This document shows, piece by piece, positions 4,951-37,124 of a stretch of DNA of 37,300 bases. Made by a program: the position numbers and the translations under genes. The notes under the pieces are model-generated. The model did no database searches. It was not told the origin of the DNA and saw only the letters and a list, made by a program, of their open reading frames with translations. Every line of letters begins with the position of its first letter. Position 1 is the stretch's first letter. Source of the DNA: Patescibacteria group bacterium (lineage in GTDB: Bacteria > Patescibacteriota > Minisyncoccia > Phycocordibacterales > WO2-35-19); the NCBI GenBank assembly GCA_038058285.1, contig JBBUBJ010000006.1, forward strand, positions 8,683 to 45,982. Reading direction: 5' to 3'.

Positions 4951-5004
4951 CCCCACCCCGTCCCGCTAAAGCGGGACCGCCCCTCACCTTGCGAAGGTGA
5001 GGGG
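4951..5004 (-). repeat. Family D composite: CCCCACCCC tail, GTCCCGC-TAAA-GCGGGAC hairpin, CCCCTCACCTT-GCG-AAGGTGAGGGG hairpin
   Basis: Two perfect hairpins at 4960-4977 and 4980-5004. The first shares the GCTAAAGC/GCTTTAGC core with family C. Confidence 0.6.
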
Positions 5005-5034
5005 AAAAACCAAAATTTCAAAATTAACCAAAAA

Positions 5035-5110: not shown

Positions 5111-5482
5111 ATGCTTACTCGAGCTGCTATGAATCGCAGTTTAGGATTACCGCGTGCCCCTGGATCTTGTTTCGGAGTTTCCGATCCAAGATATTTACGG
5201 CCCAACTTCAACAGAAGTCCGCTTCCGTTGCCACAAGCGACCAACAAAAACAAGGCCACGATTACCACCAGATTTTATATTCTGGAATGGTGGAAGAAAA
5301 ACTTCGAGCCAGAACACAGGTCTTTTAGGGCCAAAAACAATGGCCTGGCTGTCATCAAAGCGATGCGCATTCTCGGCATCAAAGGGAAATTGACTGGTCA
5401 CAAGCTCCGCAAAGCCGGAGCGAGCAGAGTTTCTCTCCTCAGCTTTAGCGATGGGGAGATTTTCCCGGGACCCAAGCAGTGA
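5111..5482 (+). CDS. Hypothetical basic protein (orphan); coding status uncertain
   Basis: GGAGGTG lies 7 nt before the ATG, a promoter lies upstream and a terminator downstream. However, the G+C-rich stretch is open in several frames on both strands and the N-terminal half is low-complexity (R/P/S/L-rich). Confidence 0.35.
   Translation: MLTRAAMNRSLGLPRAPGSCFGVSDPRYLRPNFNRSPLPLPQATNKNKATITTRFYILEWWKKNFEPEHRSFRAKNNGLAVIKAMRILGIKGKLTGHKLRKAGASRVSLLSFSDGEIFPGPKQ
5434..5459 (+). repeat. Family C hairpin (stem TCTCC/GGAGA around AGCTTTAGCGA)
   Basis: TCTCCTC-AGCTTTAGCGA-TGGGGAGA. Same loop as 7349-7374 and 12463-12490 but with a different stem. Confidence 0.5.
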
Positions 5483-6327: not shown

Positions 6328-7155
6328 TTAATTAGAAATTAGTTTTATCTCTGCAATCATTTTATCAATCTTATCTTTACTTAAACCTGCCTGAACTAAT
6401 ATATCAGGATTATCAAGTGCTTGTTTGCAGAGGACAATACCAGCCTGCATCAAAAGTTTTTCATCGCTTGGGGTGCTTGAGTTGAGACAAGTGATAGGAT
6501 GCAAATGAGCCTCTTCAATCAAATCTTGCAAATTACCATGTTCCGGATAATTCCAGCCGACCAATTTCATATTTTGGCATTTAGCATATTTAATAGCTGA
6601 TTCAGAAAATTTAGTGTTTGTAATGAGCCATCCTTCGTCAAGCTTGTGCTGGTGGTTGCCAAAATCAAATGCAGTGTTAGCCAAATCATCCCATCTGGCT
6701 TTTATATAAAGAGCAATTTTAAGGTCTGATTTGATGCCGAGCTCGTTATGAAATTTAGCTTCAACAAAAATTAATTTTTGTTCGTTCCATGCGACAATGT
6801 CTATTTCATGTTCGGCGCATTCACCTTTGGCAATAAAATCAGTTGTGGTCTCAAAACCTTTGGCTCTAAAAATTTCAGCCACAAATTGTTCAAAAGGAAA
6901 ACCTGTTGGTCCCATTTCCATTACCGCTCGGCGAAGCGAATATCTAGCTGTCGCCGGGCTTTCCTCTTTTTTCAAAAGTTCAAAAGCATGATTATAAATA
7001 TCTTTAGTACTAGCATTATCTTTAAGTTCTCTTTCTATTTGATCTACTATGTTATCAACCGCTTCTGTGCTAGCTCCTGCCCGTGTTAAAGAATCCCGCA
7101 ACTTCTGCGCATTAAATTCTTCTCTTTCTCCCGTTGCTTTAATTATGTATTTCAT
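6328..7155 (-). CDS. ATP-cone domain fused to an Mrr-like restriction endonuclease domain
   Basis: N-terminus KATGEREEFNAQKLRDSL...IERELKD (ATP-cone pattern). Then FEQFVAEIFRAKGFE...HEIDIVAW...FVEAKFH (D...E-x-K REase core). Its ATG at 7155 overlaps the mnmA TGA stop (ATGA). Confidence 0.65.
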   Translation of the reverse strand: MKYIIKATGEREEFNAQKLRDSLTRAGASTEAVDNIVDQIERELKDNASTKDIYNHAFELLKKEESPATARYSLRRAVMEMGPTGFPFEQFVAEIFRAKGFETTTDFIAKGECAEHEIDIVAWNEQKLIFVEAKFHNELGIKSDLKIALYIKARWDDLANTAFDFGNHQHKLDEGWLITNTKFSESAIKYAKCQNMKLVGWNYPEHGNLQDLIEEAHLHPITCLNSSTPSDEKLLMQAGIVLCKQALDNPDILVQAGLSKDKIDKMIAEIKLISN

Positions 7156-8276
7156 TTTTCTATTATACCACCACCAAGACAAATTTCATTGTCATACAAA
7201 ACCAAAGATTGTCCCGCCGAAACTCCCATTTGTGGTTTGTCAAACTCAACCAACAAGGATGACCCTTGTTGGTTAGGTTTTTGTGGTGTAATTTTGCATG
7301 GAATTTTTTCTTGGCGGTATCTTGTACGACAAAATAATTTTTCTTTAGTCCCGCGAAGCTTTAGCGAAGTGGGATTTATCCAATTTATTTCTGAAATTTC
7401 AAGTGTCAAGGGTCCCCCTTGGCTTTTTGAGTATGGTGTAATTTTGGGAGCGACAGTTATAGTGTTTTTTGAAATGTCTTTAGAAACAACATACAAAGGC
7501 ATTTCATTTTCTGATTTTTTGGTGACAGTGAATCCATGACGTTCGCCTATTGTAAAAAATAAAGCTCCGTTGTGGTGACCTATTTTTTTTCCTTCTAAAT
7601 CCAAAACATCTCCTCTTTTTGTTGGCATATATTGAGCTAAAAATTCTTTCATATCTATTTTACCCAAAAAACAAAGTCCTTGGCTGTCTTTTCTTGTCGC
7701 CTGTGGCAAGCCAAATTTTTCCGCCAACTTTCGTACTTTTGGTTTTTGCAAATGACCTATGGGAAATAAAATATGTTCGAGTTGTTTCTGTGTTAATGTC
7801 CACAAAAAATATGATTGGTCTTTGTTTTTGTCGGCTCCTTCCATTAACCCCACCCTGCCCTCCCCTTGATCAGAGGAGGCAACCGTACGAGCATAATGGC
7901 CAGTAGCAACATATTGAGCGCCATTTTTAAGAGCAAATTTGAGAAAGTGGCCGAATTTTATTTCTTTATTGCACATTACATCAGGATTAGGTGTTCTCCC
8001 TTTTTTATATTCGGCAATCATATAGTCAACCACTTCTTTTTTATATTCTTTTTCCAAGTCAAGAGTAATAAAAGGAATATCCAAAACTGCCGCCACTCTC
8101 ATAGCGCTTCTTCTATCTTCTTTCCAAGTGCAAGGATAACTCGGCGGAGTCCACGCTTTTATAAAAACTCCTGTCACATCATAACTTTCCTTCTTCAGCA
8201 ATGCCGCCGACACAGCGCTATCTACGCCTCCAGAAAGCCCCACATAAACTTTCTTTTTTACTGATTGACTTTTCAT
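7152..8276 (-). CDS. mnmA: tRNA 2-thiouridine(34) synthase MnmA
   Basis: PP-loop SGGVDS, KDQSYFL, TRYRQ and the C-terminal GQS.VLY pattern. Contains family A, B, C and D repeats in-frame. Confidence 0.9.
   Translation of the reverse strand: MKSQSVKKKVYVGLSGGVDSAVSAALLKKESYDVTGVFIKAWTPPSYPCTWKEDRRSAMRVAAVLDIPFITLDLEKEYKKEVVDYMIAEYKKGRTPNPDVMCNKEIKFGHFLKFALKNGAQYVATGHYARTVASSDQGEGRVGLMEGADKNKDQSYFLWTLTQKQLEHILFPIGHLQKPKVRKLAEKFGLPQATRKDSQGLCFLGKIDMKEFLAQYMPTKRGDVLDLEGKKIGHHNGALFFTIGERHGFTVTKKSENEMPLYVVSKDISKNTITVAPKITPYSKSQGGPLTLEISEINWINPTSLKLRGTKEKLFCRTRYRQEKIPCKITPQKPNQQGSSLLVEFDKPQMGVSAGQSLVLYDNEICLGGGIIEK
7248..7295 (+). repeat. Family A hairpin + tail, solo copy inside mnmA
   Basis: AACCAACAAGG-ATGAC-CCTTGTTGGTT + AGGTTTTTGTGGTGTAATTTT. 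Near-identical to 37031-37078. It is 48 nt long and is read on the minus strand as KITPQKPNQQGSSLLV. Confidence 0.85.
7349..7374 (+). repeat. Family C hairpin inside mnmA
   Basis: TCCCGC-GA-AGCTTTAGCGA-A-GTGGGA. Read on the minus strand as PTSLKLRG. Confidence 0.7.
7401..7445 (+). repeat. Family B hairpin + tail inside mnmA
   Basis: AAGTGTCAAGGGTCCCCCTTGGCTTTTTGAGTATGGTGTAATTTT. It is 45 nt long and is read as KITPYSKSQGGPLTL. Near-identical to 12561-12605. Confidence 0.85.
7848..7880 (-). repeat. Family D (short, degenerate) inside mnmA
   Basis: CCCCACCCTGCCCTCCCCTTGATCAGAGGAGGC compared with 14729-14773 (CCCCACCCC...GCCCTCCCCTTGTTCAGGGGAGGG). Read as SDQGEGRVG. Confidence 0.55.
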
Positions 8277-12124: not shown

Positions 12125-12212
12125 ATTTTTAATAATTAATTATACTACAATATTATAACACATTTAATAATGTTCACAATATCATACTCAAAAACTTTGT
12201 CAACCTTTAATA

Positions 12213-14642
12213 TTATACCACAAAATTAACTATTTTATTGAGTACAAAAATAGTCTTTTTTATTTCCTTATCATCAAGCCATTTTTGGACATCTGGCATG
12301 ATTAGCGCTTTTTCTTGGGCTTCTTTTTCGGATATGCCCGTTTCCGCTTCAAACTGAGCCCTCACTTTTCCATTTATTTGAACGACAATAATCACATTTT
12401 CCTCTTTAATTTTTGACTCGTCATATTTTGGCCATTCTTCCAAATGAATTGAAGATTCATTTGCCCCGCATAGCTTTAGCGAAGTGGGGCTGTTCCAAAT
12501 CTCATCCGTCATATGTGGTGCAAAAGGCGCCAGCAATTTCAAAAAAGTTTCAAACATGTCTAGTGTCAAGGGTTCCCCTTGGCTTTTTTGGTGTGGTGTA
12601 ATTTTTTCAAGTTCGTTTAATAAAATCATCATAGCTGAAATAGCAGTATTGAATTTATAATTTTCAATATCTTCTGTTACTTTTTTTATGGTTTTGTGCA
12701 AAAGATTCTCGAGTTTTTTATTACCGACTCCTAACTCCCCCGCCTCGCTCCGCTCGGCACCCCCTCTTAAATTAAGAGGGGGTTTGGGGGTGTTATTCAC
12801 TTTTGCCGCTATCTTCCACACCCTCTCCAAAAATCGGCGAATTCCTACCACTCCTCCCAAATCCCACGGATACTGCCCCGTTTCGTTATATGGTCCTATA
12901 AAAGCCAAATACATTTTGACTGTATCTGATCCGACTTTTTCTACCATTTCATCAGGGTCAACTACATTACCTTTGCTCTTGCTCATCTTTTGTCCGTCTG
13001 GTCCCAAAATAAGAGCTCGATTCATTCTTTTAATAAAAGGCTCTGATTCATTTACCAGTCCCAAATCAAAAAGAGCTTTGTGAAAAAATCTTGAATACAA
13101 AAGATGCATGGTGTTATGTTCAGCTCCGCCGGAATAGCGATTAACCGGCATCCATTTTTTTAGCCTGAGCTTATCGAATGGTTCGTTTTTGTTTTTAGAA
13201 TCGCAGTATCTTAAAAAATACCACGAAGAATCTATAAAAGTATCCATAGTGTCATATTCAGGTTTCCAGCCTTCGCCAAATATTTTCTCTACTCTTTCCC
13301 TCAATTCTTTTGAAGTAGCGATTGGAGATTCGCCTTTGGGTGCAAAATCTTTAACATCTTCAGGCAGAAGCCACGGCAAATTTTCTTTCGGCACAGGATG
13401 CGGCTTTCCTTCCGGATCATAAACTATGGGTATGGGACACCCCCAATATCTCTGGCGCGAAAGCAGCCAGTCCCTCAATTTATATTTTGTTACTTTTTGA
13501 CCAAATTTTTGTAAATCCCAGTCAAGTGTGATTTCTTTTACCGGTAAATTATATTTTTTAGCGAAGTCCATATCTCTTTCGTCATGTGACGGAACCGCCA
13601 TAATTGCTCCCGTGCCATAATTACCCAAAACATAATCAGCCACGAAAACCGGTATCTCCTCCCCATTTGCCGGATTAATCACCTTCACTCCTTTTATTTC
13701 AACCCCCGTTTTTTCTTTCTTTTCATTAGTCCTCTCTATTTCTGTTTTTTGTTTTGTCTGATTTATGTATTTTTGAATTTCTTCTTTGTTTCGGATTTCG
13801 GATTTAGAATTTAGAATTTCTTGCGTGAGCCAAGGATGTTCCGGTGCGACAACAACATAAGTTGCTCCCATTAAAGTATCTGCTCTTGTTGTAAAAACTT
13901 TTATTTTCTCTTTTATTTCGGATTTCGAATTTCGGATTTCGAATTTTAAAACTGTTCCTTCCGACTTCCCAATCCAGTTTTTTTGCGCCGTCTTTATTTC
14001 TTCTGGCCATTTCAAATTATCTAAATCGGAAAGTAGGTCCTCAGCATAATCTGTAATTTTGAAAAACCACTGCTCTAAATCTTTTTGAATAACTTCGGCA
14101 TCGCATCTCTCACACTTCCCCGCCACCACCTGCTCGTTGGCCAGCACCGTATTGCACGACGGGCACCAGTTGACGCTAGCCTTTTTCTTATAAGCCAAAC
14201 CTTTTTCGTAAAGTTTCAAAAACAACCACTGCGTCCATTTATAATATTCCGGGTCGGAAGTGATGACTTTGCGCGACCAGTCAAAGGAATTGCCCATACT
14301 CTGCAGTTGCTTTTCCATGTAGGCAATATTTTCGTAAGTCCACTTGCGCGGGTCCACGCCGTGTTTGATGGCGGCGTTTTCTGCCGGCAATCCGAATGCA
14401 TCAAAACCAATCGGAAACATGACATTGTAACCTTGCATTCTTTTGGTCCGCGCGAAAATATCCGGCACGGCAAAAGCATACCAATGACCTATGTGCAAAT
14501 TGCCCGATGGGTATGGGAACTCTACTAGCGTGTAAAAATTTTCTTTTCCCTTTACTTCATCCTCCGTTTTGTAAAGATTATCTTCCTGCCATTTCTTCTG
14601 CCACTTCTTTTCTATTTCTTTATGATCGTATTTTTCTTGCAT
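12213..14642 (-). CDS. leuS: Leucine--tRNA ligase
   Basis: PYPSGNLHIGH (HIGH motif), KMSKSKGN (KMSKS motif), FTTRADT and the editing domain. Contains family B, C, D and two family E repeats in-frame. Confidence 0.95.
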   Translation of the reverse strand: MQEKYDHKEIEKKWQKKWQEDNLYKTEDEVKGKENFYTLVEFPYPSGNLHIGHWYAFAVPDIFARTKRMQGYNVMFPIGFDAFGLPAENAAIKHGVDPRKWTYENIAYMEKQLQSMGNSFDWSRKVITSDPEYYKWTQWLFLKLYEKGLAYKKKASVNWCPSCNTVLANEQVVAGKCERCDAEVIQKDLEQWFFKITDYAEDLLSDLDNLKWPEEIKTAQKNWIGKSEGTVLKFEIRNSKSEIKEKIKVFTTRADTLMGATYVVVAPEHPWLTQEILNSKSEIRNKEEIQKYINQTKQKTEIERTNEKKEKTGVEIKGVKVINPANGEEIPVFVADYVLGNYGTGAIMAVPSHDERDMDFAKKYNLPVKEITLDWDLQKFGQKVTKYKLRDWLLSRQRYWGCPIPIVYDPEGKPHPVPKENLPWLLPEDVKDFAPKGESPIATSKELRERVEKIFGEGWKPEYDTMDTFIDSSWYFLRYCDSKNKNEPFDKLRLKKWMPVNRYSGGAEHNTMHLLYSRFFHKALFDLGLVNESEPFIKRMNRALILGPDGQKMSKSKGNVVDPDEMVEKVGSDTVKMYLAFIGPYNETGQYPWDLGGVVGIRRFLERVWKIAAKVNNTPKPPLNLRGGAERSEAGELGVGNKKLENLLHKTIKKVTEDIENYKFNTAISAMMILLNELEKITPHQKSQGEPLTLDMFETFLKLLAPFAPHMTDEIWNSPTSLKLCGANESSIHLEEWPKYDESKIKEENVIIVVQINGKVRAQFEAETGISEKEAQEKALIMPDVQKWLDDKEIKKTIFVLNKIVNFVV
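12463..12490 (+). repeat. Family C hairpin inside leuS
   Basis: GCCCCGC-AT-AGCTTTAGCGA-A-GTGGGGC. Read as SPTSLKLCG. Confidence 0.7.
12561..12605 (+). repeat. Family B hairpin + tail inside leuS
   Basis: TAGTGTCAAGGGTTCCCCTTGGCTTTTTTGGTGTGGTGTAATTTT. It is 45 nt long and is read as KITPHQKSQGEPLTL. Confidence 0.85.
12733..12792 (+). repeat. Family D hairpin + tail inside leuS
   Basis: CCCCCTCTTAA-A-TTAAGAGGGGG (12760-12782) plus the TTTGGGGGTG tail, preceded by CCCCCGCCTCGCTCCGCTCGGC. Read as TPKPPLNLRGGAERSEAGE. Confidence 0.7.
13789..13820. repeat. Family E tandem units inside leuS
   Basis: TTTCGGATTTCGGATTTAGAATTTAGAATTTC. Read as EILNSKSEIRN. Confidence 0.7.
13915..13947. repeat. Family E tandem units inside leuS
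   Basis: ATTTCGGATTTCGAATTTCGGATTTCGAATTTT. Read as EIRNSKSEIK. Confidence 0.7.
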
Positions 14643-14677: not shown

Positions 14678-14718
14678 GAGGATGACCCTTGAAGAATTTG
14701 CCCCAAAGGGTCATCCTC
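14678..14718. repeat. Family G long hairpin (arms GAGGATGACCCTT / AAGGGTCATCCTC, loop ending TGCCCCA)
   Basis: Perfect 13-bp arms. The arm sequence is related to the family A core GGATGACCCTT. The loop end TGCCCCA-AAGGG is shared with 23151-23205. Confidence 0.7.
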
Positions 14719-14728
14719 AAATTTTTAA

Positions 14729-14773
14729 CCCCACCCCTCGCTTCGCGTAGCCCTCCCCTTGTTCAGGGGAGGG
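14729..14773 (-). repeat. Family D tail + hairpin
   Basis: CCCCACCCC tail, then CTCGCTTCGCGTAG, then stem CCCTCCCCT (14751-14759) / AGGGGAGGG (14765-14773). Confidence 0.7.
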
Positions 14774-14846: not shown

Positions 14847-14888
14847 ACAAGGATGACCCTTGTACTTGAACAAAGTGTGATGTAATTT
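14847..14888 (+). repeat. Family A, degenerate copy
   Basis: ACAAGGATGACCCTTGT + ACTTGAACAAAGTGTGATGTAATTT. The tail overlaps the TAA stop of 14887..15561. Confidence 0.6.
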
Positions 14889-15561
14889 AAACACTCTCTA
14901 TTATTTTTGTTCTTTCCCAATCAGTGGGAACAATGGCGACAATTCTTTTATTTTCAATATCAATCTGAAAAACCATATCCTTTAATTTCCATCCACGAAT
15001 AACTCCTACCTGTTCAAACTGAGTTTTTAATTCGTTCATTTTATGTTCCGCCTCGTTCATAAGAGTTGCAACATCTTCGTCTGAGTACCCTTTTTCTTTA
15101 AGATTTAAGGTATCTCGTTCAGACCAGCGGATACCGGGTATTCGTTCCATAACAATAATATGTGTTCCTCCTTGTTCTGCTTTGGCAACCGGTTTTGCGG
15201 CGGGTAATCCCATTTGAGCAAGCCGTTCAAGAATTTTATACTCATAAAAATGATCTCCTGATTTACCAACATCTCCTTTGGTAAAATTTACTCGTCTAGC
15301 AACAGTTAAAATTTCTTGATTTTCTGGATTTTTCCAAACAGGTAAATCTTTGACAGCAGTTGGGTCTTCTCGAACTTTTCCCGTTTCATCAACTTTCTTT
15401 TCTCCTGTTTTTATGTTCTTTCCTTCTCTCTCAAAATATCCCGTTGGGTCATCAAGAAATTCTTGAGGCACAAAATTAACAAATTCAGTCTCAACTTCTA
15501 CTTTGGGAATGGGAGTGATTTCTTGAATATTATTTTGTGGATTTGGGGAACTTTCCATCAT
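14887..15561 (-). CDS. Hypothetical protein with weak protein-kinase-like (RIO/Kdo-type) pattern
   Basis: The ORF overlaps the hicA stop by 4 nt. EYKILERLAQMGLPAAKP...HIIVMERIPG resembles the kinase alphaC/hinge, but the catalytic-loop position reads GVIRGWKLKD rather than HGDL..N. Confidence 0.5.
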   Translation of the reverse strand: MMESSPNPQNNIQEITPIPKVEVETEFVNFVPQEFLDDPTGYFEREGKNIKTGEKKVDETGKVREDPTAVKDLPVWKNPENQEILTVARRVNFTKGDVGKSGDHFYEYKILERLAQMGLPAAKPVAKAEQGGTHIIVMERIPGIRWSERDTLNLKEKGYSDEDVATLMNEAEHKMNELKTQFEQVGVIRGWKLKDMVFQIDIENKRIVAIVPTDWERTKIIESV

Positions 15562-16986: not shown

Positions 16987-17018
16987 ATTTTTAGATTAAT
17001 TTTAATAAAGATATTATA

Positions 17019-17834
17019 TCAAATTTTAAACTCAATCACATCCCCATCTTTAACAATATAGTCTTTTCCTTCTGTGCGGAGAAGGCCTTTTTCACGAGCA
17101 GAAGCATAAGAGCCGGCTTCTAAAAGTTTGTCCCATTCAATAACTTCGGCGCGTATAAATTTGTCTTTAAAATCATTATGAATAGCTCGGCCCGCTTCGG
17201 GGGCGGTTGAATTTCTTTTAATTGTCCAGCCTCTCGTCTCATCTTCTCCTGTTGTAAAAAAGGTTATGAGGTCAAGCATCTCGTAAGCTTTTTTTATGAG
17301 TTCATTCAAACCTTTGCCAAAAATGGGGTCCACTTCAACATATGGTCCGGGAATTTTTTGCAAAACATCTAGATGATTTTCGCTGGCTTCGGAAGTGTTT
17401 ATGACATACAAAATAGGTTTTTTTAATTCCGCCAATTCCAATTCCAAATTTATTATTTCAATATCAAAAAGAGGATCAATTTTGCCGGCGACATGAATAA
17501 TTTCTTTGTCCTCAAAAACACGGACAACTTCGGCAATGGCATCCACCTCGCGAATGTGAGACAAAAATTTGTTGCCCAATCCTTCGCCTTTTGAGGCACC
17601 TTGCACAAGCCCGGCAATGTCTACAAACTCTACAACCGCCGGGATTTTCTTTTGCGATTTTGAAAATTCATTCAATTTTTCCAATCGTTCATCTGGCACA
17701 GCAATAATCCCCACTGATGGGTCAATGGTGCAAAAAGGATAATTCTCCGCCGGCACACTTTTTTTGGTAAGCGCATTAAAAAGCGTACTTTTGCCGACAT
17801 TGGGAAGTCCTACAATTCCTATTGATAGGTTCAT
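17019..17834 (-). CDS. ychF: Ribosome-binding ATPase YchF, short form
   Basis: GLPNVGKSTLFNALT, DIAGLV.GAS.GEGLGN.FL, and C-terminal TGS-like GKDYIVKDGDVIEF. About 90 aa shorter than the E. coli protein because the helical insert is missing. Confidence 0.85.
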   Translation of the reverse strand: MNLSIGIVGLPNVGKSTLFNALTKKSVPAENYPFCTIDPSVGIIAVPDERLEKLNEFSKSQKKIPAVVEFVDIAGLVQGASKGEGLGNKFLSHIREVDAIAEVVRVFEDKEIIHVAGKIDPLFDIEIINLELELAELKKPILYVINTSEASENHLDVLQKIPGPYVEVDPIFGKGLNELIKKAYEMLDLITFFTTGEDETRGWTIKRNSTAPEAGRAIHNDFKDKFIRAEVIEWDKLLEAGSYASAREKGLLRTEGKDYIVKDGDVIEFKI

Positions 17835-18025: not shown

Positions 18026-18802
18026 TTAATCTTTCAAATATGTTAATGCTCCCCAAAGTCCACCAAAGTCGCCAAGCTCTGCTTTTTTTATGACAGGGAT
18101 TTGGGGAAATATTTTTAGAATATCTTCCAAATATTTTTTTGTTTTATCAAGCGGTATTGCCGGATCGCCTGTAATCATTGAACCGCCGAGAACGACACAG
18201 TTTGGCGACCATTCCATTATTATATTATTAAGACCGATGGCCAAAAGCCAGGCATGATTGTCCCAAACACCTTGGTCTTTTATTTCTTTAGGATGTTTGC
18301 CAAATTTTTCCTGCAATGCTTTACCCGAAATCATGTCTTCAAGAGTTTTTCCGCTATTTACATCCATAATTTGCTTGCCCGGTTCAAAACCGACAGCATG
18401 CTCGTCTATTTTTCCGTTGACAATTTTAGCCCCGCCGACACCTGTAGAAACAGTTATATAAGCCACGATTTCAAATCCGCGACCGGCACCAAATTGAGCC
18501 TCGCCCACTCCTGCCATACTTGCATCATTTTCTATAATAATTTCTGTTTCTTTAAAATTTTCAACCAAATCACTTTTTAATTTTTTATAATCCCCATCCC
18601 AAACACTTCTGCTCATTCCCCCAACTATTTTTTTAATTTCTCTCTCTTTTGCTAAATTTTTAGCTGTTTCTACAAATAATCTAAAACCTTCTTCATAATT
18701 TTGATTTGTCTCAAAAATTTTAGGCTCTTCAAATTTTTCTTCACTTTCCGCAAAAGCCATTCTTGTTTTAGTTGCACCAATGTCGAATAAAATTGAATTC
18801 AT
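18026..18802 (-). CDS. ROK-family sugar kinase (glucokinase-like)
   Basis: N-terminal DIGATKTR, ENDASMAGVGE, and GVGGAKIVNG. Confidence 0.7.
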   Translation of the reverse strand: MNSILFDIGATKTRMAFAESEEKFEEPKIFETNQNYEEGFRLFVETAKNLAKEREIKKIVGGMSRSVWDGDYKKLKSDLVENFKETEIIIENDASMAGVGEAQFGAGRGFEIVAYITVSTGVGGAKIVNGKIDEHAVGFEPGKQIMDVNSGKTLEDMISGKALQEKFGKHPKEIKDQGVWDNHAWLLAIGLNNIIMEWSPNCVVLGGSMITGDPAIPLDKTKKYLEDILKIFPQIPVIKKAELGDFGGLWGALTYLKD

Positions 18803-18807
18803 ATTTT

Positions 18808-19797
18808 TTAATTTATTTCGGATTTCGTGCTTCGGATTTCGGATTTATATTCCTCAACTGCTGGCTGATCATAAGGATCCACCCCAAGCAGTTTTGCCAG
18901 TTCTATTGTTGTTGCCATCATAAAAGCCATAAAACTTCCTAGTTCTTTTTCATTTATTTCTGCCATTTCATATTTTATAAAAGGTAGGCCGGCTTTTTGA
19001 TAAGCGTCGGTAACATTTTCAAAAGCAGTTTGATTTATATTATTTTGATTTTCTTTAAGAGATAGAATAAAAATAGTAAATCGGTTTTTAGGTCCGCCCA
19101 AATAAAGTTCCAGCATAGAATGCAAATCTACCGGACCAATGGAAACAGTCGGAGTAATTAAAGAAATACTTTCGGCTATAAGCTGGCGGCACCACTTGCC
19201 CAAATCCTCCAACTCCGAATTAAAAATAAAAAAATCTAAAATATTAAAATCATTTTTGTAATTATCAAAAATATTTCGAGCCAAATGTTTTGTTTCTTCT
19301 TCTTTTATTTCTTTACTCCCAATAATAAAATTTTCTACATCCAAACCGGCGATGGATAAAACAGTAGTGTGAGCAACAGTAAAAGCGCTAAATCGTCCGC
19401 CAGTATTTCCTTCCCATTCTATTTTTTCAGCCTCTTTTTCTTCAGCTATTTTCCAAAGTGTAGAATTGGGAGTTGATATTATAAGTATTCTTTCATTTAT
19501 AGTGTCAAAGGGCATCTTTGACATTATTTCAAAAATTTTATTAAAAGTTTCCAAAGTTTCTGCTGTTTCGCCAGATTTACTCACAACAATCAAAACAAAA
19601 TCTTCCAACTTTTTTATTTCGTTTTCTACTATATTTTCTATTTCCTCATATTCTCGCTCATCTGGCGATTCTAAAAAATATATTTTCTTGTCTGTTTTTT
19701 TGTGCAGAGTTATAGCATCCCAAACCGCTTTGCTTGCCAAATCGGAACCGCCTATGCCTATTACAAAAATGTATTTTGATTTTTTAAATTTTTCCAT
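18808..19797 (-). CDS. pgi: Glucose-6-phosphate isomerase-like SIS protein (short type)
   Basis: IFVIGIGGSDLASKAV and SKSGETAET motifs. I prefer the ATG at 19797 because the ORF-track extension runs through a terminator. The C-terminal KSEIRSTKSEIN comes from a family E repeat. Confidence 0.65.
   Translation of the reverse strand: MEKFKKSKYIFVIGIGGSDLASKAVWDAITLHKKTDKKIYFLESPDEREYEEIENIVENEIKKLEDFVLIVVSKSGETAETLETFNKIFEIMSKMPFDTINERILIISTPNSTLWKIAEEKEAEKIEWEGNTGGRFSAFTVAHTTVLSIAGLDVENFIIGSKEIKEEETKHLARNIFDNYKNDFNILDFFIFNSELEDLGKWCRQLIAESISLITPTVSIGPVDLHSMLELYLGGPKNRFTIFILSLKENQNNINQTAFENVTDAYQKAGLPFIKYEMAEINEKELGSFMAFMMATTIELAKLLGVDPYDQPAVEEYKSEIRSTKSEIN
18815..18846. repeat. Family E tandem units at the pgi 3' end
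   Basis: ATTTCGGATTTCGTGCTTCGGATTTCGGATTT. It supplies the last codons before the pgi stop (18808-18810). Confidence 0.7.
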
Positions 19798-19803
19798 ATA
19801 GGT

Positions 19804-19809
19804 ATTATA
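19804..19809 (-). promoter_or_regulatory. TATAAT -10 box, 6 nt before the pgi ATG (leaderless start suggested)
   Basis: The minus strand reads GCTATAAT-ACCTAT-ATG. Confidence 0.45.
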
Positions 19810-19819
19810 GCAAAAATAA

Positions 19820-19857
19820 TAAAAAACGCCCTGCTGGAGTTGTCTGGCGACAACTCC
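19820..19857 (-). terminator. Stem-loop plus T-run ending the 20141-19826 transcription unit
   Basis: Stem GGAGTTGTC (19836-19844) / GACAACTCC (19849-19857). On the minus strand it is followed by AGCAGGGCGTTTTTT. The 9-nt gap before the T-run is atypical. Confidence 0.4.
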
Positions 19858-20141
19858 ACGCAAGGACGCTCGCTTTCCTCAAAACCGATTGGCCGATGAG
19901 GAGCGAAAAGGCGGAACTAATGAATCTGGTGTTTCTTTTCTCGGGGAGTCATCGGGAGTCGACATCCCCGACACATCTTGTGTCTCTTAACATTATCCAT
20001 GCTGTTTGGTTGAAGGCAAGAACAGATTACCATCGTTTCCGAACGGTCTTGGATAACGGATAACCTTTTCCCTTGTTGAAGAACAACAACCTGAGGTTGC
20101 ACAATGTGTCTCTTTTCTCGGAGGAATTTGTACTTGAACTG
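19826..20141 (-). ncRNA. Candidate structured RNA or small Cys-containing ORF unit (unclassified)
   Basis: It has its own TTGCTT-N17-TATAAA promoter (20148-20176) and a 3' stem-loop/T-run. The stretch is G+C-rich with many local helices, for example GACACA-AGA-TGTGTC and CGGGGA...TCCCCG. A 16-nt direct repeat occurs at 20106-20121 and 19929-19944. I found no match to known RNA consensus sequences. Confidence 0.3.
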
Positions 20142-21957: not shown

Positions 21958-23787
21958 TTACTTTTTTCCAGCTTTAACTCTCTCCAATTCGGTCAGAAGT
22001 TTTTTGCGGAGGCGGACAGATTTGGGAGTGATTTCCAAATATTCATCTTCCGCCATAATTTCCAGACCGCTTTCAATAGTGATAGGCGTCGGTGGAGCCA
22101 AATAAATTTTATCGTCCGAACCGGAGGCGCGCATATTTGTAAGTTGTTTGCCCTTGGTTGGATTGACCGTCAACTCGTCGCCCTTGGATGTGTTGCCTAT
22201 AACCATACCCTCGTAAACTTCTGTTGTTGGACCAATATATAAAGTGCCTCGAGTTTGCAAATTATCAAGAGCGAAAGCTAATGCTTTGCCGTTGGCCATT
22301 GAAGTCATTGAGCCAGTCGCTTTTTTTTGTATTTCACCGGCGTAGGAACGAAAACCAACAACTCTGGTACCCAAAATTCCCTCGCCTTTTGTATCAACAA
22401 CAAACTGATTTCTATAACCCAAAAGTCCTCGAGTCGGCCCTTCAAAAATTAAACGCACATGATTGTTGTGGTGTTTTGTGTTTGTCATAATCGCTCCTCT
22501 TTTTCCTAACTTTTCAATAACCACTCCTTGCATTTCTTCCGGCACATCTATAGTTACTTCTTCAAAAGGTTCGCTTTTTATTCCATAAATTTCTTTTATA
22601 ATAACCTGTGGTTGAGAAACTTGCATTTCAAACCCCTCTCTTCTCATGTTTTCAAGTAGGATGGCAATGTGCAGTTCTCCTCGCCCGTAAACTTTCATCT
22701 CATCTTGACCAAAATCAACTTTAAGTCCTACATTCACTTCCAACTCTTTTTCAAGTCGCTCTCTAATTTGACGACTGTTGACATATTTTCCTTCCCGTCC
22801 CCCAAAAGGCGAATTATTAACCAAGAAATTTACAGCTATGGTTGGTTCGTCTACATTTATTGCCGGCAAACTTTCTGTTTCCGGATTGTCTGTTATTGTG
22901 TCGCCTATATAAATGTTAGGTAGGCCGGCAATCATGGCAATGTCCCCAGTTTCCACTTCTTTTGATTCTTTTCTAGCTACGCCTTCAAATGTAAAAATTT
23001 TTGTAATTTTACCTTCCTCTATTTTGCCATCCGTTTTTTTAACAAAAACTTTTTGACCGTTTTTTATTGTGCCCTCATAAATTCTGACTATGGCCATTCT
23101 GCCCAAAAAATTATCATAAGCCAAATTAAAAGGTTGTGCTCGCAGTGGTTCCTGCCAAGGGGAACCCTTAAACTGCTCCTGCCCCAAAGGGTTCCCCTTG
23201 GCAGGATTAGCAGGAATAACTTTTTCCAAAATAGTATCAAGCAAAGGTTTTATACTTTCCTTTTTATCATTCAAATTTTTTATTACAATTCCTTCTCTGG
23301 CGACAGCATGAAGAGTTGTAAAATTTAATTGTTCTTCGGTGGCATCAAGGTCAAAGAACAACTCAAAAATTTCGGCAAGGGTAGTTTTAATCCTGTTAAT
23401 GTCGGCACCGGGACGATCAATTTTATTTAAAACAACGATTGGTTTGTGACCTATTTCCAAAGATTTTTTCAAAACAAAACGAGTCTGAGGCATAGGCCCT
23501 TCTTGAGCATCAACAACCAAAATAACCGAATCAATGGATCTTAAAATTCTTTCAACTTCACTTCCAAAGTCGGCATGTCCCGGTGTATCTACTATATTTA
23601 TTTTGGTGTCTTTATATATGACAGAAGCGTTTTTGGAATAAATAGTAATGCCACGTTCTTTTTCAAGTGCGTTTGTATCCATTGAAAATCCTTCCTCGCT
23701 AAAACCTGTTTGCTTCAAAATAGCATCCGTCAACGCTGTTTTGCCGTGGTCCACATGGGCTATGATTGCTATGTTTCGTATTTCCAT
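21958..23787 (-). CDS. typA: Translational GTPase TypA/BipA
   Basis: IRNIAIIAHVDHGKT, DTPGHADF, NKID, and the C-terminal BipA-specific domain. I prefer the ATG at 23787. Contains a 55-nt hairpin in-frame. Confidence 0.9.
   Translation of the reverse strand: MEIRNIAIIAHVDHGKTALTDAILKQTGFSEEGFSMDTNALEKERGITIYSKNASVIYKDTKINIVDTPGHADFGSEVERILRSIDSVILVVDAQEGPMPQTRFVLKKSLEIGHKPIVVLNKIDRPGADINRIKTTLAEIFELFFDLDATEEQLNFTTLHAVAREGIVIKNLNDKKESIKPLLDTILEKVIPANPAKGNPLGQEQFKGSPWQEPLRAQPFNLAYDNFLGRMAIVRIYEGTIKNGQKVFVKKTDGKIEEGKITKIFTFEGVARKESKEVETGDIAMIAGLPNIYIGDTITDNPETESLPAINVDEPTIAVNFLVNNSPFGGREGKYVNSRQIRERLEKELEVNVGLKVDFGQDEMKVYGRGELHIAILLENMRREGFEMQVSQPQVIIKEIYGIKSEPFEEVTIDVPEEMQGVVIEKLGKRGAIMTNTKHHNNHVRLIFEGPTRGLLGYRNQFVVDTKGEGILGTRVVGFRSYAGEIQKKATGSMTSMANGKALAFALDNLQTRGTLYIGPTTEVYEGMVIGNTSKGDELTVNPTKGKQLTNMRASGSDDKIYLAPPTPITIESGLEIMAEDEYLEITPKSVRLRKKLLTELERVKAGKK
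23151..23205. repeat. Family G long hairpin inside typA
   Basis: Perfect 19-nt arms CCTGCCAAGGGGAACCCTT / AAGGGTTCCCCTTGGCAGG around AAACTGCTCCTGCCCCA. The arm core equals the family B stem. Read as PAKGNPLGQEQFKGSPWQ. Confidence 0.85.
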
Positions 23788-23993
23788 AATTAAAAATCCC
23801 CTGAGGGAAGTTGTCCTCATTATACATTATTTCTTTTAAAAAACAAATTCCCAATTAAACTCTGACCTTTTTGGGTTTTCTTTTTTCTTTTTTATGTCCA
23901 TCGCCTTTGGCCATAAGTTTATTATATCATTTAATATATTTTAAAAAATGTTAACAATATTTTTATAAGCAAGTTTTGATATATTTTTAATTC

Positions 23994-28662: not shown

Positions 28663-28733
28663 CTGGGAGGGAAGGAATCGAACCTTCATATACAGCTTCA
28701 AAGGCTGCTGTCCGACCATTAGACGACCTCCCA
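28663..28733 (-). tRNA. tRNA-Gln (anticodon UUG)
   Basis: A 71-nt cloverleaf folded by hand. Acceptor TGGGAGG/CCTCCCA, D arm GTCT/GGAC, anticodon loop CTTTGAA, T arm GAAGG-TTCGATT-CCTTC, discriminator G. CCA is not encoded. Confidence 0.85.
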
Positions 28734-30900: not shown

Positions 30901-30971
30901 TGGACCTAGCCAGGATCGGACTGGCGACTTGGCATTGCAAATGCCACGTAATACCACTTTACTATAGGCCC
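30901..30971 (-). tRNA. tRNA-Ala (anticodon UGC)
   Basis: A 71-nt cloverleaf folded by hand. Acceptor GGGCCTA/TAGGTCC with a G3:U70 pair, anticodon loop TTTGCAA, T arm GCCAG-TCCGATC-CTGGC, discriminator A. CCA is not encoded. Confidence 0.8.
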
Positions 30972-31664: not shown

Positions 31665-32372
31665 TTAATAATTATCTGCCACAAATCTCTTACCTTTAAA
31701 AAGTAGCCACAACGCGCCCACTAAAATTACCAGTTCGGACCAAAAGTCCCATTGGAACCACCATTGGCTAAGCAGTTCTATTCTGGTAAATCTGGAATAA
31801 TATCCCCCGGTCGGGTCTATGTTAAAGAATAAAAACGAGAAATGTCCAAGCATTAAAAACGCCGTAAATATTACTCCGCCGATTAGTATAAGCTTATAGC
31901 TTCTTGATATTTGCGGGGCTGACTTTGTCAGAAACAAGATGCCAAACAACAAAGCTAAAACTGTTGTATCCGTACTGTGAACATTAAGAAAGTCCCATAA
32001 AAGTTGTGGCCAAACATGAATGTTGCCGGTTCCAAGAGGAAGTTCAAAACTCTTCATTCCAAAAACAGAATATCCGTCTTTGTATGGTAGCCAAATCTCC
32101 TGAACAACAATCATTGTTATTATAATCAGAAAAAGAAAAGCTCCCGCTAAAATCCATTTCCAATTCGTGTCTCTTTTCAAATTCAAGCTTGGCCTGAATA
32201 TTTCGTATGCCAAGCCGGCAAGAATAACAAGAAAGCCAATCCACGGAGGACCGTAACTTATTGACGGAACATCTCCCAAATTTATTTTCGTCCATGTAGG
32301 CATCCAAAGTAATAGCAATAAAACTATCACAAAGAAAATAAACGCAAAAATACGATTTGAAGCATTGCTCAT
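31665..32372 (-). CDS. Multi-pass membrane protein (6-7 helices)
   Basis: 235-aa ORF dominated by hydrophobic helices and rich in Trp/Phe. Confidence 0.7.
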   Translation of the reverse strand: MSNASNRIFAFIFFVIVLLLLLWMPTWTKINLGDVPSISYGPPWIGFLVILAGLAYEIFRPSLNLKRDTNWKWILAGAFLFLIIITMIVVQEIWLPYKDGYSVFGMKSFELPLGTGNIHVWPQLLWDFLNVHSTDTTVLALLFGILFLTKSAPQISRSYKLILIGGVIFTAFLMLGHFSFLFFNIDPTGGYYSRFTRIELLSQWWFQWDFWSELVILVGALWLLFKGKRFVADNY

Positions 32373-32504
32373 ATTTTTTAATTATATCAAAATTTGATAT
32401 ACTATGTCCACCAAATTTGATTTATAGACGAAGGTTGATTTTCTTTTTATTTTGCAGTACTGTAATCTTAGATTCAAAAAATCCTTAATCAATGGAGGTG
32501 CGCA

Positions 32505-36317: not shown

Positions 36318-36321
36318 AATT

Positions 36322-36372
36322 AATCAAACCAACAAAGATGACCTTTGTGGTTTGATTAGTGTGGTATAATTT
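36322..36372 (+). repeat. Family A hairpin + tail, left flank of transposase-like gene
   Basis: AATCAAACCAACAAAG-ATGAC-CTTTGTGGTTTGATT + AGTGTGGTATAATTTT. The stem carries a compensatory A-T pair where other copies have G-C. Confidence 0.8.
36362..36370 (+). promoter_or_regulatory. Extended -10 box TGGTATAAT formed by the repeat tail, 6 nt before ATG 36377
   Basis: TGGTATAAT-TTTGAT-ATG. No SD is possible. Confidence 0.5.
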
Positions 36373-36376
36373 TGAT

Positions 36377-37027
36377 ATGAAAAATAGGGATTATAAAAAT
36401 TTTGCTAAGGGAGAAATTTATCATGTTTATAATAGAGGGGTGAATAAAGCAGATATTTTTAAGACTCAGAAAGATTATGAGGTTTTTCTATCCCGTTTAA
36501 AAGAAAATTTATTTCCTGAATTTGTAGATAAAAAGAAATTATCTTGGTTGGAAAAACGCAGAAAATTACTTCCCCCAAACTCTTTTGATTTAATATGTTA
36601 TTGTCTTATGCCGAATCATTTTCATTTACTTATTCAACAAAAAACAGATTTACCCATAACCAAATTAATATCTAAAATATGTACAAGTTATGCAATATGT
36701 TTTAACAAAAAACATGGGAGAGTTGGGGCGGTTTTTCAGGACCAATTTAAGGCTGTATTAGTTGAAAACAATGAACAACTTTTATGGACATCTTATTATA
36801 TTCATAAAAACCCAACAGAAGCAGATATTGTAATAAATCTCAAAGATTATAAATGGGGCAGCTATTCGGAATATTTTGATAAGGAAAATAGTTTTAAATT
36901 ATGTAAAAAAGATATTATTACTAAACAGTTTAATTCCGAAAAGCAATATTTAAAGTATTTTGATGATAAAGAAAATGATGAAATGACTTCTTTGAGAGAT
37001 TTTTATTTTGATTTTAGCGAGGATTAA
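36377..37027 (+). CDS. IS200/IS605-family Y1 (HUH) transposase-like protein, RAYT-like (copy 2)
   Basis: GEIYHVYNRGVNK, HUH motif MPNHFHLL, YIHKNP with Tyr. I prefer the ATG at 36377 because the GTG at 36359 in the ORF track lies inside the repeat. Confidence 0.8.
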   Translation: MKNRDYKNFAKGEIYHVYNRGVNKADIFKTQKDYEVFLSRLKENLFPEFVDKKKLSWLEKRRKLLPPNSFDLICYCLMPNHFHLLIQQKTDLPITKLISKICTSYAICFNKKHGRVGAVFQDQFKAVLVENNEQLLWTSYYIHKNPTEADIVINLKDYKWGSYSEYFDKENSFKLCKKDIITKQFNSEKQYLKYFDDKENDEMTSLRDFYFDFSED

Positions 37028-37030
37028 CAA

Positions 37031-37078
37031 AACCAACAAGGATGACCCTTGTTGGTTGGCTAAGTGTGGTGTAATTTT
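37031..37078 (+). repeat. Family A hairpin + tail, right flank of transposase-like gene
   Basis: AACCAACAAGG-ATGAC-CCTTGTTGGTT + GGCTAAGTGTGGTGTAATTTT, starting 4 nt after the stop codon. Confidence 0.85.
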
Positions 37079-37087
37079 AATTTAAAC

Positions 37088-37124
37088 TAAAAAAGCAATC
37101 CCCGTTCCAAAACAGAACGGGGAT
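37088..37124 (-). terminator. Rho-independent terminator of the partial minus-strand gene
   Basis: ATCCCCGTTC (37098-37107) / GAACGGGGAT (37115-37124), followed on the minus strand by TGCTTTTTT. Confidence 0.55.

What the first reader, a model, noticed from the sequence alone, without database searches (positions are those of the whole stretch)
36322..37078. RAYT/IS200-like gene bracketed by two direct copies of a hairpin-plus-tail module, with solo copies elsewhere
Seen directly: the left module (36322-36372) and right module (37031-37078) share the core AACCAACAARG-ATGAC-CYTTGTKGGTT plus the tail GTGTGGTRTAATTTT. The left copy has CAAAG/CTTTG where the others have CAAGG/CCTTG. That is a compensatory change that keeps the stem paired.

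A solo copy lies in mnmA (7248-7295) and a degenerate copy lies at 14847-14888.

Established knowledge: IS200/IS605 TnpA (Y1 HUH) enzymes act on subterminal hairpins, and RAYTs are associated with REP hairpins.

Inference: this gene is the mobilising or maintenance enzyme for families A and B. Direct rather than inverted flanking copies fit IS200/IS605 left-end/right-end organisation better than a classical REPtron.
Basis: partly seen in the sequence, partly recalled or inferred. Interest (0 to 1): 0.7.

Follow-up and report, generated by a model that had tools for sequence, protein, structure and literature searches.

The report
Hairpin-flanked RAYT-like gene in Patescibacteria
A single-copy relative of the REP-associated tyrosine transposases lies between two same-strand copies of a short DNA hairpin; the upstream copy carries a promoter-like motif just before the gene's start codon, extra copies sit in frame inside nearby essential genes, and the same gene-between-hairpins layout recurs across many Patescibacteria, where I found no published description.

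Summary
ORF 36377-37027 encodes a 216-aa Y1 HUH protein with invariant NHFH and YIHKNP motifs. It is bracketed by two direct copies of a hairpin-plus-tail module. Further copies lie in mnmA, in leuS and in an intergenic region.

- **Enzyme type:** it is not an IS200/IS605 TnpA. Its motifs (Y..NP, FQ, SS) and its predicted fold, which best matches E. coli RAYT 4ER8, place it with class-2 RAYT-like proteins.
- **Copy number:** I found it at one syntenic locus only (all 10 loci examined, of 22 contigs carrying the identical protein).
- **Family pattern:** in 63 of 73 related Patescibacteria loci the gene's two flanks share a species-specific palindrome, usually in direct orientation. The unit is compact, about 737 nt.
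- **Tail:** it is an extended -10 promoter-like motif (TGTGGTATAAT) ending 6 nt before the ATG. The right-end copy and the solo copies carry TGTAAT instead, which should disable it.
- **Dispersal:** solo copies are specific to this lineage and overwrite protein loops in frame.
- **Family B:** its link to this enzyme is not shown.

Best reading: a REPtron-like unit of a new, direct-repeat type. Catalysis and mobilisation are inferred, not shown.

The parts
36321..36358 (+). Left hairpin: 16-bp stem with one bulged A, loop ATGAC. It occupies the position where a -35 element would lie.
   Evidence: DNA fold -13 kcal/mol, z -6.1; compensatory CAAAG/CTTTG pair
36359..36373 (+). Left tail GTGTGGTATAATTTT: an extended -10 promoter-like motif (TGTGg-TATAAT, hexamer 36365-36370). 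The ATG follows 6 nt later, which suggests a leaderless mRNA.
   Evidence: TGNTATAAT 11 observed vs 1.7 expected in the window, several of them just upstream of ORF starts; same spacing in orthologues; orthologue N-terminal mis-calls 'WYNF'
36377..37027 (+). Y1 HUH gene, 216 aa, class-2 RAYT-like. HUH motif = N80-H81-F82-H83; catalytic Tyr = Y141 in YIHKNP.
37031..37057 (+). Right hairpin AACCAACAAGG-ATGAC-CCTTGTTGGTT. It starts 3 nt after the stop codon and matches the mnmA solo hairpin at 27 of 27 positions.
37064..37078 (+). Right tail GTGTGGTGTAATTTT. The -10 hexamer reads TGTAAT, with A changed to G at the -11 position.
7248..7295 (+). Solo family-A module inside mnmA (gene on the - strand). 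It is read antisense and in frame as (KI)TPQKPNQQGSSLL.
14847..14889 (+). Degenerate family-A module in an intergenic region. The outer stem is lost and the tail reads GTGTGATGTAATTTA.
   Evidence: orthologous better-preserved copy in L104
7403..7445 (+). Family-B module (hairpin CAAGGG-TCC-CCCTTG plus the same tail) inside mnmA. It is read as (KI)TPYSKSQGGPLTL.
12563..12605 (+). Family-B module inside leuS. It is read as (KI)TPHQKSQGEPLTL. Its tail matches the right tail at 15 of 15 positions.
23151..23205 (.). Inverted doublet of family-B hairpins without tails (REPIN-like), in frame in typA/bipA. It adds about 13 aa relative to orthologues.
14678..14718 (.). Inverted doublet built on the family-A core (GAGGATGACCCTT ... 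AAGGGTCATCCTC), intergenic.

Best explanation
The locus is a REPtron-like unit belonging to a widespread Patescibacteria clade of class-2 (RAYT-type) Y1 HUH proteins. A single-copy, largely vertically inherited gene is packed between two same-strand copies of its own species-specific hairpin, each followed by a short 3' tail.

Shown:
- The enzyme carries the HUH and Tyr motifs, and its predicted fold is RAYT-like.
- Hairpin-gene-hairpin is the family-wide layout.
- The hairpin is kept by compensatory change.
- The upstream tail is an extended -10 promoter-like motif placed so that the ATG would be the first transcribed base.
- In this lineage the module also occurs as roughly 45-55-nt solo copies, several of them in frame in essential genes.

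Inferred:
- The enzyme recognises the hairpin on single-stranded DNA, as E. coli TnpA-REP does.
- It cuts and rejoins near the tail, possibly at the ...GTGT|AATTTT junction.
- This maintains, and occasionally copies, the module.
- Binding at the left module also regulates the gene's own promoter.
For: Protein:
- PF01797 match at E 8e-10.
- H81, H83, Y141, N145 and P146 are invariant.
- The motifs NHFH, FQ, YIHKNP and WSSY match class 2, subclass 2.1 in Table 1 of PMC6006769.
- The AF2 model has pLDDT 86.5. Its best PDB match is 4ER8_A, RAYT bound to a REP hairpin (E 1.6e-6, TM 0.70, rmsd 2.6 A), ahead of ISDra2 and IS608 TnpA.
- A profile search aligns YIHKNP with YIYINP of 4ER8.

Association with the hairpins:
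- 63 of 73 orthologous loci share an exact word of at least 10 nt between the up- and downstream flanks. The median is 16 nt, and the shared word I inspected was typically a palindrome. Controls gave 15 of 365 and 10 of 365.
- Paralogues within one genome are 41-67% identical, and where a flank word was found the two paralogues carried unrelated ones.
- The unit is compact, median 737 nt. The downstream copy overlaps the ORF end in 13 of 52 loci.
- Orthologues at 59-79% identity keep an ATGMC-loop hairpin and the tail.
- Stem covariation is well above controls.

Single copy and synteny:
- All 10 loci examined (of 22 contigs with the identical protein) show the same hisS - RNaseH-like - Y1 context.
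- L092, 72% identical, is syntenic.
- Viral contigs hold only one distant relative.

Promoter:
-.

Solo copies resemble the right-end copy:
- The mnmA solo hairpin equals the right hairpin at 27 of 27 positions.
- All four solo tails in the window (7281, 7431, 12591, 14875) and the nine in the metagenome loci share the right tail's TGTAAT variant.
Against: - There is no biochemical evidence of any kind.
- In 54 of 61 related loci the flank hairpin is not found elsewhere within +-10 kb. For most of the family the enzyme may therefore act only on its own flanks.
- The flanks are direct, not inverted. There is no 5' GT[AG]G at the hairpin foot.
- The NCBIfam RAYT equivalog model scores 49 bits against a cut-off of 80.
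- For subclass 2.1 the literature reports no REPs.
- Family B has a different hairpin, and no cognate Y1 gene lies in the window.
- The tail resembles the genome's generic promoter motif, so part of its conservation may come from transcription rather than from the enzyme.
- The in-gene copies replace native loops rather than simply adding length: net +5 aa at the family-A site and +1 aa at the family-B site in mnmA. Simple insertion does not explain this.
Confidence: 0.6

Rival explanations
1. It is an autonomous IS200-type insertion sequence. The two hairpins are its left and right ends, the unit transposes as a whole by peel-and-paste, and the solo modules are remnants or miniature derivatives.
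For: - The unit is compact at about 740 nt, with subterminal hairpins on one strand.
- The promoter sits inside the left end.
- The Y1 gene occupies a different nearby slot in L091 and in the P0008 contig, and a different locus altogether in L093.
- In L092 a solo module marks the slot the gene occupies in L091.
Against: - The enzyme has the class-2 Y..NP motif, is 216 aa long and has a RAYT-like fold.
- I found one locus only, the same in all 10 examined.
- Among the paralogue pairs seen in the fetched loci, none is near-identical.
- Synteny holds at 72% identity.
- It is essentially absent from viral contigs.
- Both modules carry the tail on the same side, so there are no outward-facing cleavage sites at the two ends as in IS608.
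Confidence: 0.12
2. The hairpins are purely regulatory. The upstream palindrome acts as an operator or promoter element and the downstream one as a terminator or RNA-stability element. The protein is a domesticated DNA-binding regulator. The solo copies spread by recombination or gene conversion without the enzyme.
For: - The upstream copy overlaps TTGACA or TGnTATAAT promoter-like elements in many of the loci inspected, and the ATG lies 4-9 nt after the -10-like hexamer in 29 of 79 loci.
- The right hairpin is scored as terminator-like on the - strand.
- Most relatives have no dispersed copies.
- In-gene copies replace loops without much change in length, which looks like conversion.
Against: - The catalytic His, His and Tyr residues are invariant across 63 homologues at 49-79% identity. 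A pure binding protein would not need them.
- A terminator has no need to match the promoter-side sequence, including a 15-44-nt tail (L017, L033).
- The right tail is followed by a convergent gene's terminator, so it serves no downstream gene.
Confidence: 0.18
3. The modules are generic genome-wide repeats, and the gene sits between two of them by chance.
For: The window is rich in several short repeat families, in coding and non-coding DNA.
Against: - Flank sharing occurs in 63 of 73 independent loci, each with a different palindrome.
- Both modules are conserved next to orthologues at 59-79% identity.
- Distances to the start and stop codons are tightly constrained.
Confidence: 0.02

Closest known systems
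RAYT / TnpA-REP with REPtron (E. coli YafM, PDB 4ER8; Nunvar 2010 PMC2817692; Bertels 2017 PMC5581495)
   Same: - HUH plus one Tyr in a Y..NP motif.
- The best structural match.
- Single copy and mostly vertical inheritance.
- The gene is flanked by its own species-specific hairpins.
- Paralogues have distinct hairpins.
- Solo copies are dispersed in this lineage, and inverted doublets also occur.
   Different: - The flanking copies are direct, not inverted.
- There is no 5' GT[AG]G at the hairpin foot.
- A conserved 3' tail doubles as a -10 promoter-like motif.
- In most relatives the hairpin is confined to the gene's flanks.
- The protein is longer (216 aa) and scores below the NCBIfam RAYT cut-off.
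TnpA-Y1 subclass 2.1 / Bertels group 1 / TIRYT-TIRtron (Quentin 2018 PMC6006769; Di Nocera 2013 PMC3733652)
   Same: - Motif signature NH[YF]H, FQ, Y[IV]HxNP and an SS motif after the core.
- Length above 200 aa with a C-terminal extension.
- Low copy number.
- The gene is bracketed by terminal repeats that are only sometimes amplified in the genome.
   Different: - Published members carry terminal inverted repeats with GGGGWSAS, or no detectable REPs.
- Here the repeats are short hairpins in direct orientation.
- Membership rests on motifs only; no phylogeny was run.
IS200/IS605 (IS608, ISDra2)
   Same: - Compact unit of about 0.7 kb.
- Subterminal hairpins on one strand.
- A possible fixed target next to the element (AAAATT).
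- HUH/Y1 chemistry.
   Different: - The Y motif is Y...Q and the core-only protein is about 150 aa.
- They are multi-copy with near-identical copies.
- The left and right ends have cleavage sites on opposite outer sides.
Intragenic REPs and Rickettsia palindromic elements (RPE)
   Same: Short palindromic repeats sit in frame in essential genes, tRNA synthetases among them, and are tolerated in loops (PMC3733652).
   Different: - These modules are shorter, about 45-55 nt.
- They carry a tail.
- They partly replace the native loop.
- They are found in Patescibacteria.

Membership tests
Y1 HUH superfamily (PF01797) | HUH motif and a single catalytic Tyr in the RNase-H-unrelated HUH fold | tested here: met
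   Pfam match 39.3 bits against a cut-off of 23. H81, H83 and Y141 are invariant. The predicted fold matches 4ER8, 2XO6 and 2VJV.
IS200/IS605 TnpA (subclass 1.1) | Y motif Y[IV]ENQ, HUH motif DH[VI]H, core-only protein of about 150 aa | tested here: not met
   The protein has YIHKNP and NHFH and is 216 aa, compared with Table 1 of PMC6006769.
IS200/IS605 TnpA (subclass 1.1) | Several near-identical copies per genome | tested here: not met
   All 10 loci examined (of 22 contigs) show one and the same locus. Paralogues in other genomes are 41-67% identical. A whole-genome count was not possible.
IS200/IS605 TnpA (subclass 1.1) | Subterminal hairpins at both ends on the same strand | tested here: met
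IS200/IS605 TnpA (subclass 1.1) | Left end cleaved 5' of its hairpin and right end cleaved 3' of its hairpin (outward cleavage sites) | tested here: inconclusive
   Both modules carry the conserved tail on the 3' side, which argues against mirror-image ends. The cleavage sites themselves are unknown.
RAYT / REPtron (class 2 TnpA-REP) | Y..NP motif and RAYT-like fold | tested here: met
RAYT / REPtron (class 2 TnpA-REP) | Gene flanked by its cognate palindromes | tested here: met
   The window and 63 of 73 orthologous loci.
RAYT / REPtron (class 2 TnpA-REP) | Flanking REPs in inverted orientation (REPIN arrangement) | tested here: not met
   The copies are direct in the window. 50 of 73 loci share a direct word of at least 12 nt.
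RAYT / REPtron (class 2 TnpA-REP) | GT[AG]G tetranucleotide at the 5' foot of the hairpin | tested here: not met
   The sequence 5' of the window's hairpins is A-rich. GTGG occurs only inside the 3' tail.
RAYT / REPtron (class 2 TnpA-REP) | High genome-wide copy number of the cognate REP | not testable with these tools
   Only 37 kb plus about 9 kb of the genome is held. Four family-A and two family-B tailed modules lie in the window. There are no extra copies in 54 of 61 related loci.
RAYT / REPtron (class 2 TnpA-REP) | Passes the NCBIfam NF047646 equivalog cut-off | tested here: not met
   49.1 bits against a cut-off of 80.
Subclass 2.1 / TIRYT | NH[YF]H, FQ, Y[IV]HxNP and SS motifs; length above 200 aa | tested here: met
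   By inspection of A1 and A2 against Table 1 of PMC6006769. No phylogeny or subclass HMM was run.
Subclass 2.1 / TIRYT | Terminal inverted repeats with the GGGGWSAS motif | tested here: not met
   The flanks are direct AT-rich hairpins.
Intragenic REP / RPE-like elements | A repeat copy sits in frame inside a conserved gene, and orthologues lack it | tested here: met
   mnmA, leuS and typA/bipA.

The most novel reading that the evidence does not exclude
The gene plus one module is a single-strand DNA cassette. The Y1 enzyme cuts at the ...GTGT|AATTTT junction of two direct modules, releases [module + gene], and re-joins it at another solo module or at a bare AAAATT target. That would explain three things: the direct repeats on both flanks, the gene's move into the slot that a solo module marks in a sister genome, and the AAAATT found at empty sites. 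The same reaction would seed roughly 50-nt modules that overwrite surface loops of essential proteins, giving a built-in source of protein-loop variation in reduced Patescibacteria genomes.
Probability: 0.2. Interest if true: 0.75.

Novelty: new variant of a known kind. Interest (0 to 1): 0.55.

Why it matters
RAYTs are the textbook case of a domesticated transposase that lives with its own miniature repeats. They have been characterised mostly in Proteobacteria and Cyanobacteria, and the largest subclass (2.1) was reported to have no associated hairpins.

Here a 2.1-like clade is spread through Patescibacteria: at least 593 hits among genomes that each represent one species. It shows a very regular hairpin-gene-hairpin unit in direct orientation, with the promoter-like motif built into the left hairpin module.

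That provides a clean, small substrate set for biochemistry: a hairpin and tail of about 50 nt and a 216-aa enzyme. It also gives a natural series for study. Most lineages carry only the two flanking copies, while this one has dispersed copies, so one can ask how a REP population is born.

The in-frame copies in mnmA, leuS and typA show that such repeats reshape loops of core translation proteins in very small genomes.

Tried and rejected
- **PDB sequence search:** a search with the single protein found nothing. Only the profile search (E 0.47) and the fold search reached 4ER8.
- **Peptide search:** I searched for other host proteins with a concatenated module peptide.
- **Replication-strand bias:** all six tailed modules are on the + strand. 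GC skew follows gene orientation and changes sign near 31 kb, so no consistent leading or lagging assignment can be made. I dropped this line.
- **UvrD-like helicase link:** the helicase is adjacent in the close relatives, but only 1 of 80 diverse loci has one nearby. I rejected it as local synteny.
- **Tail as a promoter for a downstream gene at every copy:** rejected. The right copy faces a convergent gene's terminator, and the in-gene copies are antisense and carry TGTAAT.
- **Known RNA family:** Rfam reports only two tRNAs in the window.
- **Phage carriage:** one 28%-identical relative was found in viral contigs.
- **Population polymorphism of the flanks:** none; the 10 loci examined have identical flanks.
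- **Truncated variants:** P0002 and P0021, and the split MnmA on a 288-kb contig, look like assembly frameshifts and were not pursued.

Full report
**What is there**

The region 36321-37078 holds three things.
- A left module: hairpin 36321-36358, then the tail GTGTGGTATAATTTT at 36359-36373.
- An ORF at 36377-37027.
- A right module: hairpin 37031-37057, a 6-nt spacer, then the tail GTGTGGTGTAATTTT at 37064-37078.

All of this is read directly from the sequence. Both modules lie on the + strand with the same loop (ATGAC) and the tail on the 3' side, so they are direct copies.

The hairpin pattern and the tail both occur far more often than in shuffles: 5 against 0.00 and 8 against 0.17. As single strands both hairpins fold better than shuffles, with z = -6.1 and -4.1. 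The left copy differs from the others by a compensatory G:C to A:T pair. It also lacks one T, which leaves a bulged A, and it has a longer outer stem.

Ten loci from independently assembled contigs, from Hainich groundwater metagenomes and one NCBI MAG, were examined out of 22 contigs that carry the identical protein. They have identical flanks.

**The protein**

- It matches Pfam Y1_Tnp (E 8e-10).
- It matches NCBIfam's RAYT model below its cut-off, 49 bits against 80.
- In 63 homologues at 49-79% identity, H81 and H83 (NHFH), Y141, N145 and P146 (YIHKNP) are invariant.
- Against the published classification of Y1 proteins (PMC6006769, Table 1), the Y..NP motif puts it in class 2, the RAYT side, rather than with IS200 (Y...Q).
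- The combination NH[YF]H, FQ, Y[IV]HxNP, an SS motif and a length above 200 aa fits subclass 2.1. This is an assignment by motifs only.
- An AlphaFold model (pLDDT 86.5) matches best the E. coli RAYT bound to its REP hairpin: 4ER8_A, E 1.6e-6, TM 0.70, rmsd 2.6 A. ISDra2 and IS608 transposases follow at TM about 0.6.
- A profile search aligns YIHKNP with the YIYINP of 4ER8.

**The hairpin-gene-hairpin layout is a family trait**

A scan of one genome per species found at least 593 relatives. Among the 80 loci kept, most are labelled Patescibacteria; a substantial minority carry other labels, which I did not check. In 73 loci with enough flank, the 100 nt upstream and the 100 nt downstream of the gene share an exact word of at least 10 nt in 63 cases, with a median of 16 nt. 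Mismatched-locus controls gave 15 of 365 and same-locus random windows 10 of 365.

In the loci I read, the shared word was typically a palindrome, and it differs from species to species. Direct words of at least 12 nt occur in 50 of 73 loci.

The unit is compact.
- Its median length is 737 nt.
- The upstream word ends about 22 nt before the ATG.
- The downstream word starts about 7 nt after the stop codon, and overlaps the ORF end in 13 of 52 loci.

Where one genome holds two paralogues (41-67% identical), the two carry unrelated flank words in the pairs where a flank word was found.

Close relatives at 59-79% identity keep an ATGMC-loop hairpin and the tail next to the gene. One at 46% identity (L017) keeps the identical tail with a different hairpin, inside a 44-nt perfect direct repeat. 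Across 22 such modules the stem is maintained by compensatory changes at 5 of 11 pairs. The covariation score is 0.264 against 0.10 in shuffles (0 of 500 reach it) and at most 0.09 in slid controls.

**The tail**

TGTGGTATAAT is an extended -10 promoter-like motif.
- TGNTATAAT occurs 11 times in the window against 1.7 expected, and several of the sites I checked lie just upstream of ORF starts.
- In the left module the hexamer ends 6 nt before the ATG, which implies a leaderless mRNA.
- The same geometry is found in 29 of 79 orthologous loci against 53 of 1580 random positions, with a peak at 6 nt. Shine-Dalgarno-like motifs are rare, 7 of 79.
- In other clades the repeated tail carries TTGACA instead.
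- All seven left copies examined have TATAAT. The window's right copy and all 13 solo copies collected have TGTAAT, and that variant occurs only in modules.
- From general knowledge of sigma-70 promoters, the A at position -11 is the base most needed for promoter opening, so these copies are probably disarmed.
- The right copy faces the terminator of a convergent gene, so it serves no downstream gene.

The tail is therefore more than a promoter. The exact 15-nt string is shared by the right copy and the family-B copy in leuS.

**Mobile element or resident gene**

- All 10 loci examined have the gene between an RNase-H-like gene and dsbA, downstream of hisS.
- A 72%-identical orthologue (L092) is syntenic.
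- Two others at 71-74% identity have the gene a few kilobases away, between sigma-70 and uvrD, in the orientation of uvrD.
- A 64%-identical one is elsewhere.
- L092 carries a third, solo module in exactly that sigma-70/uvrD slot and in that orientation.
- Viral contigs hold only one distant relative.

This is the profile of a RAYT, single-copy and mostly vertical, with occasional local relocation. It is not the profile of an active insertion sequence.

**Dispersal is lineage-specific**

In 54 of 61 related loci the flank hairpin does not recur within +-10 kb. The window holds two further family-A copies, at 7248-7295 and 14847-14889, and two family-B copies with another hairpin and the same tail, at 7403-7445 and 12563-12605. 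It also holds tail-less inverted doublets at 14678-14718 and 23151-23205.

The mnmA solo hairpin equals the right hairpin at 27 of 27 positions. A metagenome scan found more solo copies in relatives, in and between genes.

**The copies inside genes**

The copies in mnmA, leuS and typA/bipA are read antisense and in frame. Among 60 MnmA orthologues, some carry the same peptide modules at the same loop sites, some carry unrelated modules, and many carry none.

A codon alignment with a module-free orthologue (L110) shows two things.
- The modules replace native loop residues: net +5 aa at the family-A site and +1 aa at the family-B site.
- AAA ATT, the last six bases of the tail read on the other strand, is already present at both empty sites.

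The mobile part may therefore end at ...GTGTGGTGT, with AATTTT as a preferred target. This rests on one DNA comparison plus the K-I residues seen in many orthologues, so it is a lead and not a result.

Family C in leuS and the family-B doublet in typA are net insertions of 7 aa and about 13 aa. In-frame REPs in other phyla are already known (PMC3733652).

**How it most likely works**

By analogy with TnpA-REP and IS608, the enzyme should bind the extruded hairpin on single-stranded DNA and cut and rejoin nearby. Occupancy of the left hairpin, which lies where a -35 element would be, would also throttle the gene's own promoter. Every step of this is inferred.

The direct arrangement would follow if a circle of [module + gene] integrates at a solo module. 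That is the more novel reading, and I give it a probability of about 0.2. Nothing links family B to this enzyme beyond the shared tail.

**Literature**

Full-text searches found no description of RAYTs or REPs in the Candidate Phyla Radiation or Patescibacteria. For subclass 2.1 the published surveys found no REPs.

I rate this a new variant of a known kind and of moderate interest.

Noticed in passing
window 7152-8276 (mnmA), 12213-14642 (leuS), 21958-23820 (typA/bipA): Three core translation genes carry short repeat modules in frame, all antisense to the module's hairpin-then-tail strand. mnmA holds families A, B and C. leuS holds B and C. typA holds a B-B inverted doublet. The ORFs stay intact and keep all their Pfam domains.
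   Followed up: partly
proteins P0121-P0180 (MnmA orthologues): At the same loop sites, orthologues at 60-75% identity carry other recurring peptide modules. Examples are HFGR[PS]SKML.KEV, NAFQKVLGSPLQSSTRLSSKHFSTQP, RKKIANGKVWPSDSEETRGLFQEQFFSG, a C-terminal DSTSSL, and LPAQAGD. MnmA length ranges from 350 to 447 aa. These loops look like hot spots for several repeat families.
   Followed up: no
window 7341-7383, 12456-12498, 5441-5465: Family C (CCCGCGAAGCTTTAGCGAAGTGGG) is an imperfect hairpin without a tail, read as NPTSLKL[RC]G. In leuS it is a net 7-aa insertion relative to L103.
   Followed up: partly
window 13772-13819, 13899-13946, 18799-18846: A further repeat family made of TTTCGGATTTCGGATTT-type units. 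It is read in frame as KSEIRNSKSEI twice inside leuS and once at the C-terminal end of ORF 18808-19863.
   Followed up: no
window, 11 sites (e.g. 12212-12220 -, 17013-17021 -, 32381-32389 -): TGNTATAAT extended -10 motifs occur 11 times against 1.7 expected. Several lie just upstream of ORF starts. The site at 32381-32389 ends 8 nt before the start of ORF 31665-32372, which suggests leaderless mRNAs may occur beyond the Y1 gene.
   Followed up: partly
L092 6418-6460 (- strand); compare L091 1190-2330: A third hairpin-plus-tail module with TATAAT lies between sigma-70 and uvrD, about 55 nt upstream of the uvrD start. This is the slot and orientation that the Y1 gene occupies in L091 and in the P0008 contig.
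   Followed up: partly
window 4980-5008, 5545-5569, 14748-14772, 37098-37124: G+C-rich hairpins of the type CCCCTCACC...GGTGAGGGG or CCCTCCCC...GGGGAGGG sit in intergenic DNA next to A or T runs. They are unrelated to families A-C and are probably terminators.
   Followed up: no
L093 8395-8436 and 9095-9132; L103 562-600: In one metagenome (3300025323) a Y1 gene is flanked by GGTACAATG-ATGAC-CATTGTACC, and an mnmA solo copy reads GGTACAAGG-ATGAC-CCTTGTACC. The two differ by one compensatory pair. Whether both contigs come from one genome is unknown.
   Followed up: no
L001, L002, L004 downstream of the window end (about L001 10925 onward): Runs of N (200-300 in total) begin about where the window ends. 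Gene calls for the uvrD-like gene differ between contigs: 761 aa in some, against an 88-aa fragment plus a gap in others. This is probably an effect of masking or assembly.
   Followed up: partly
window 28663-28733 and 30901-30971 (- strand): Two tRNA genes, the only Rfam matches in the window.
   Followed up: no
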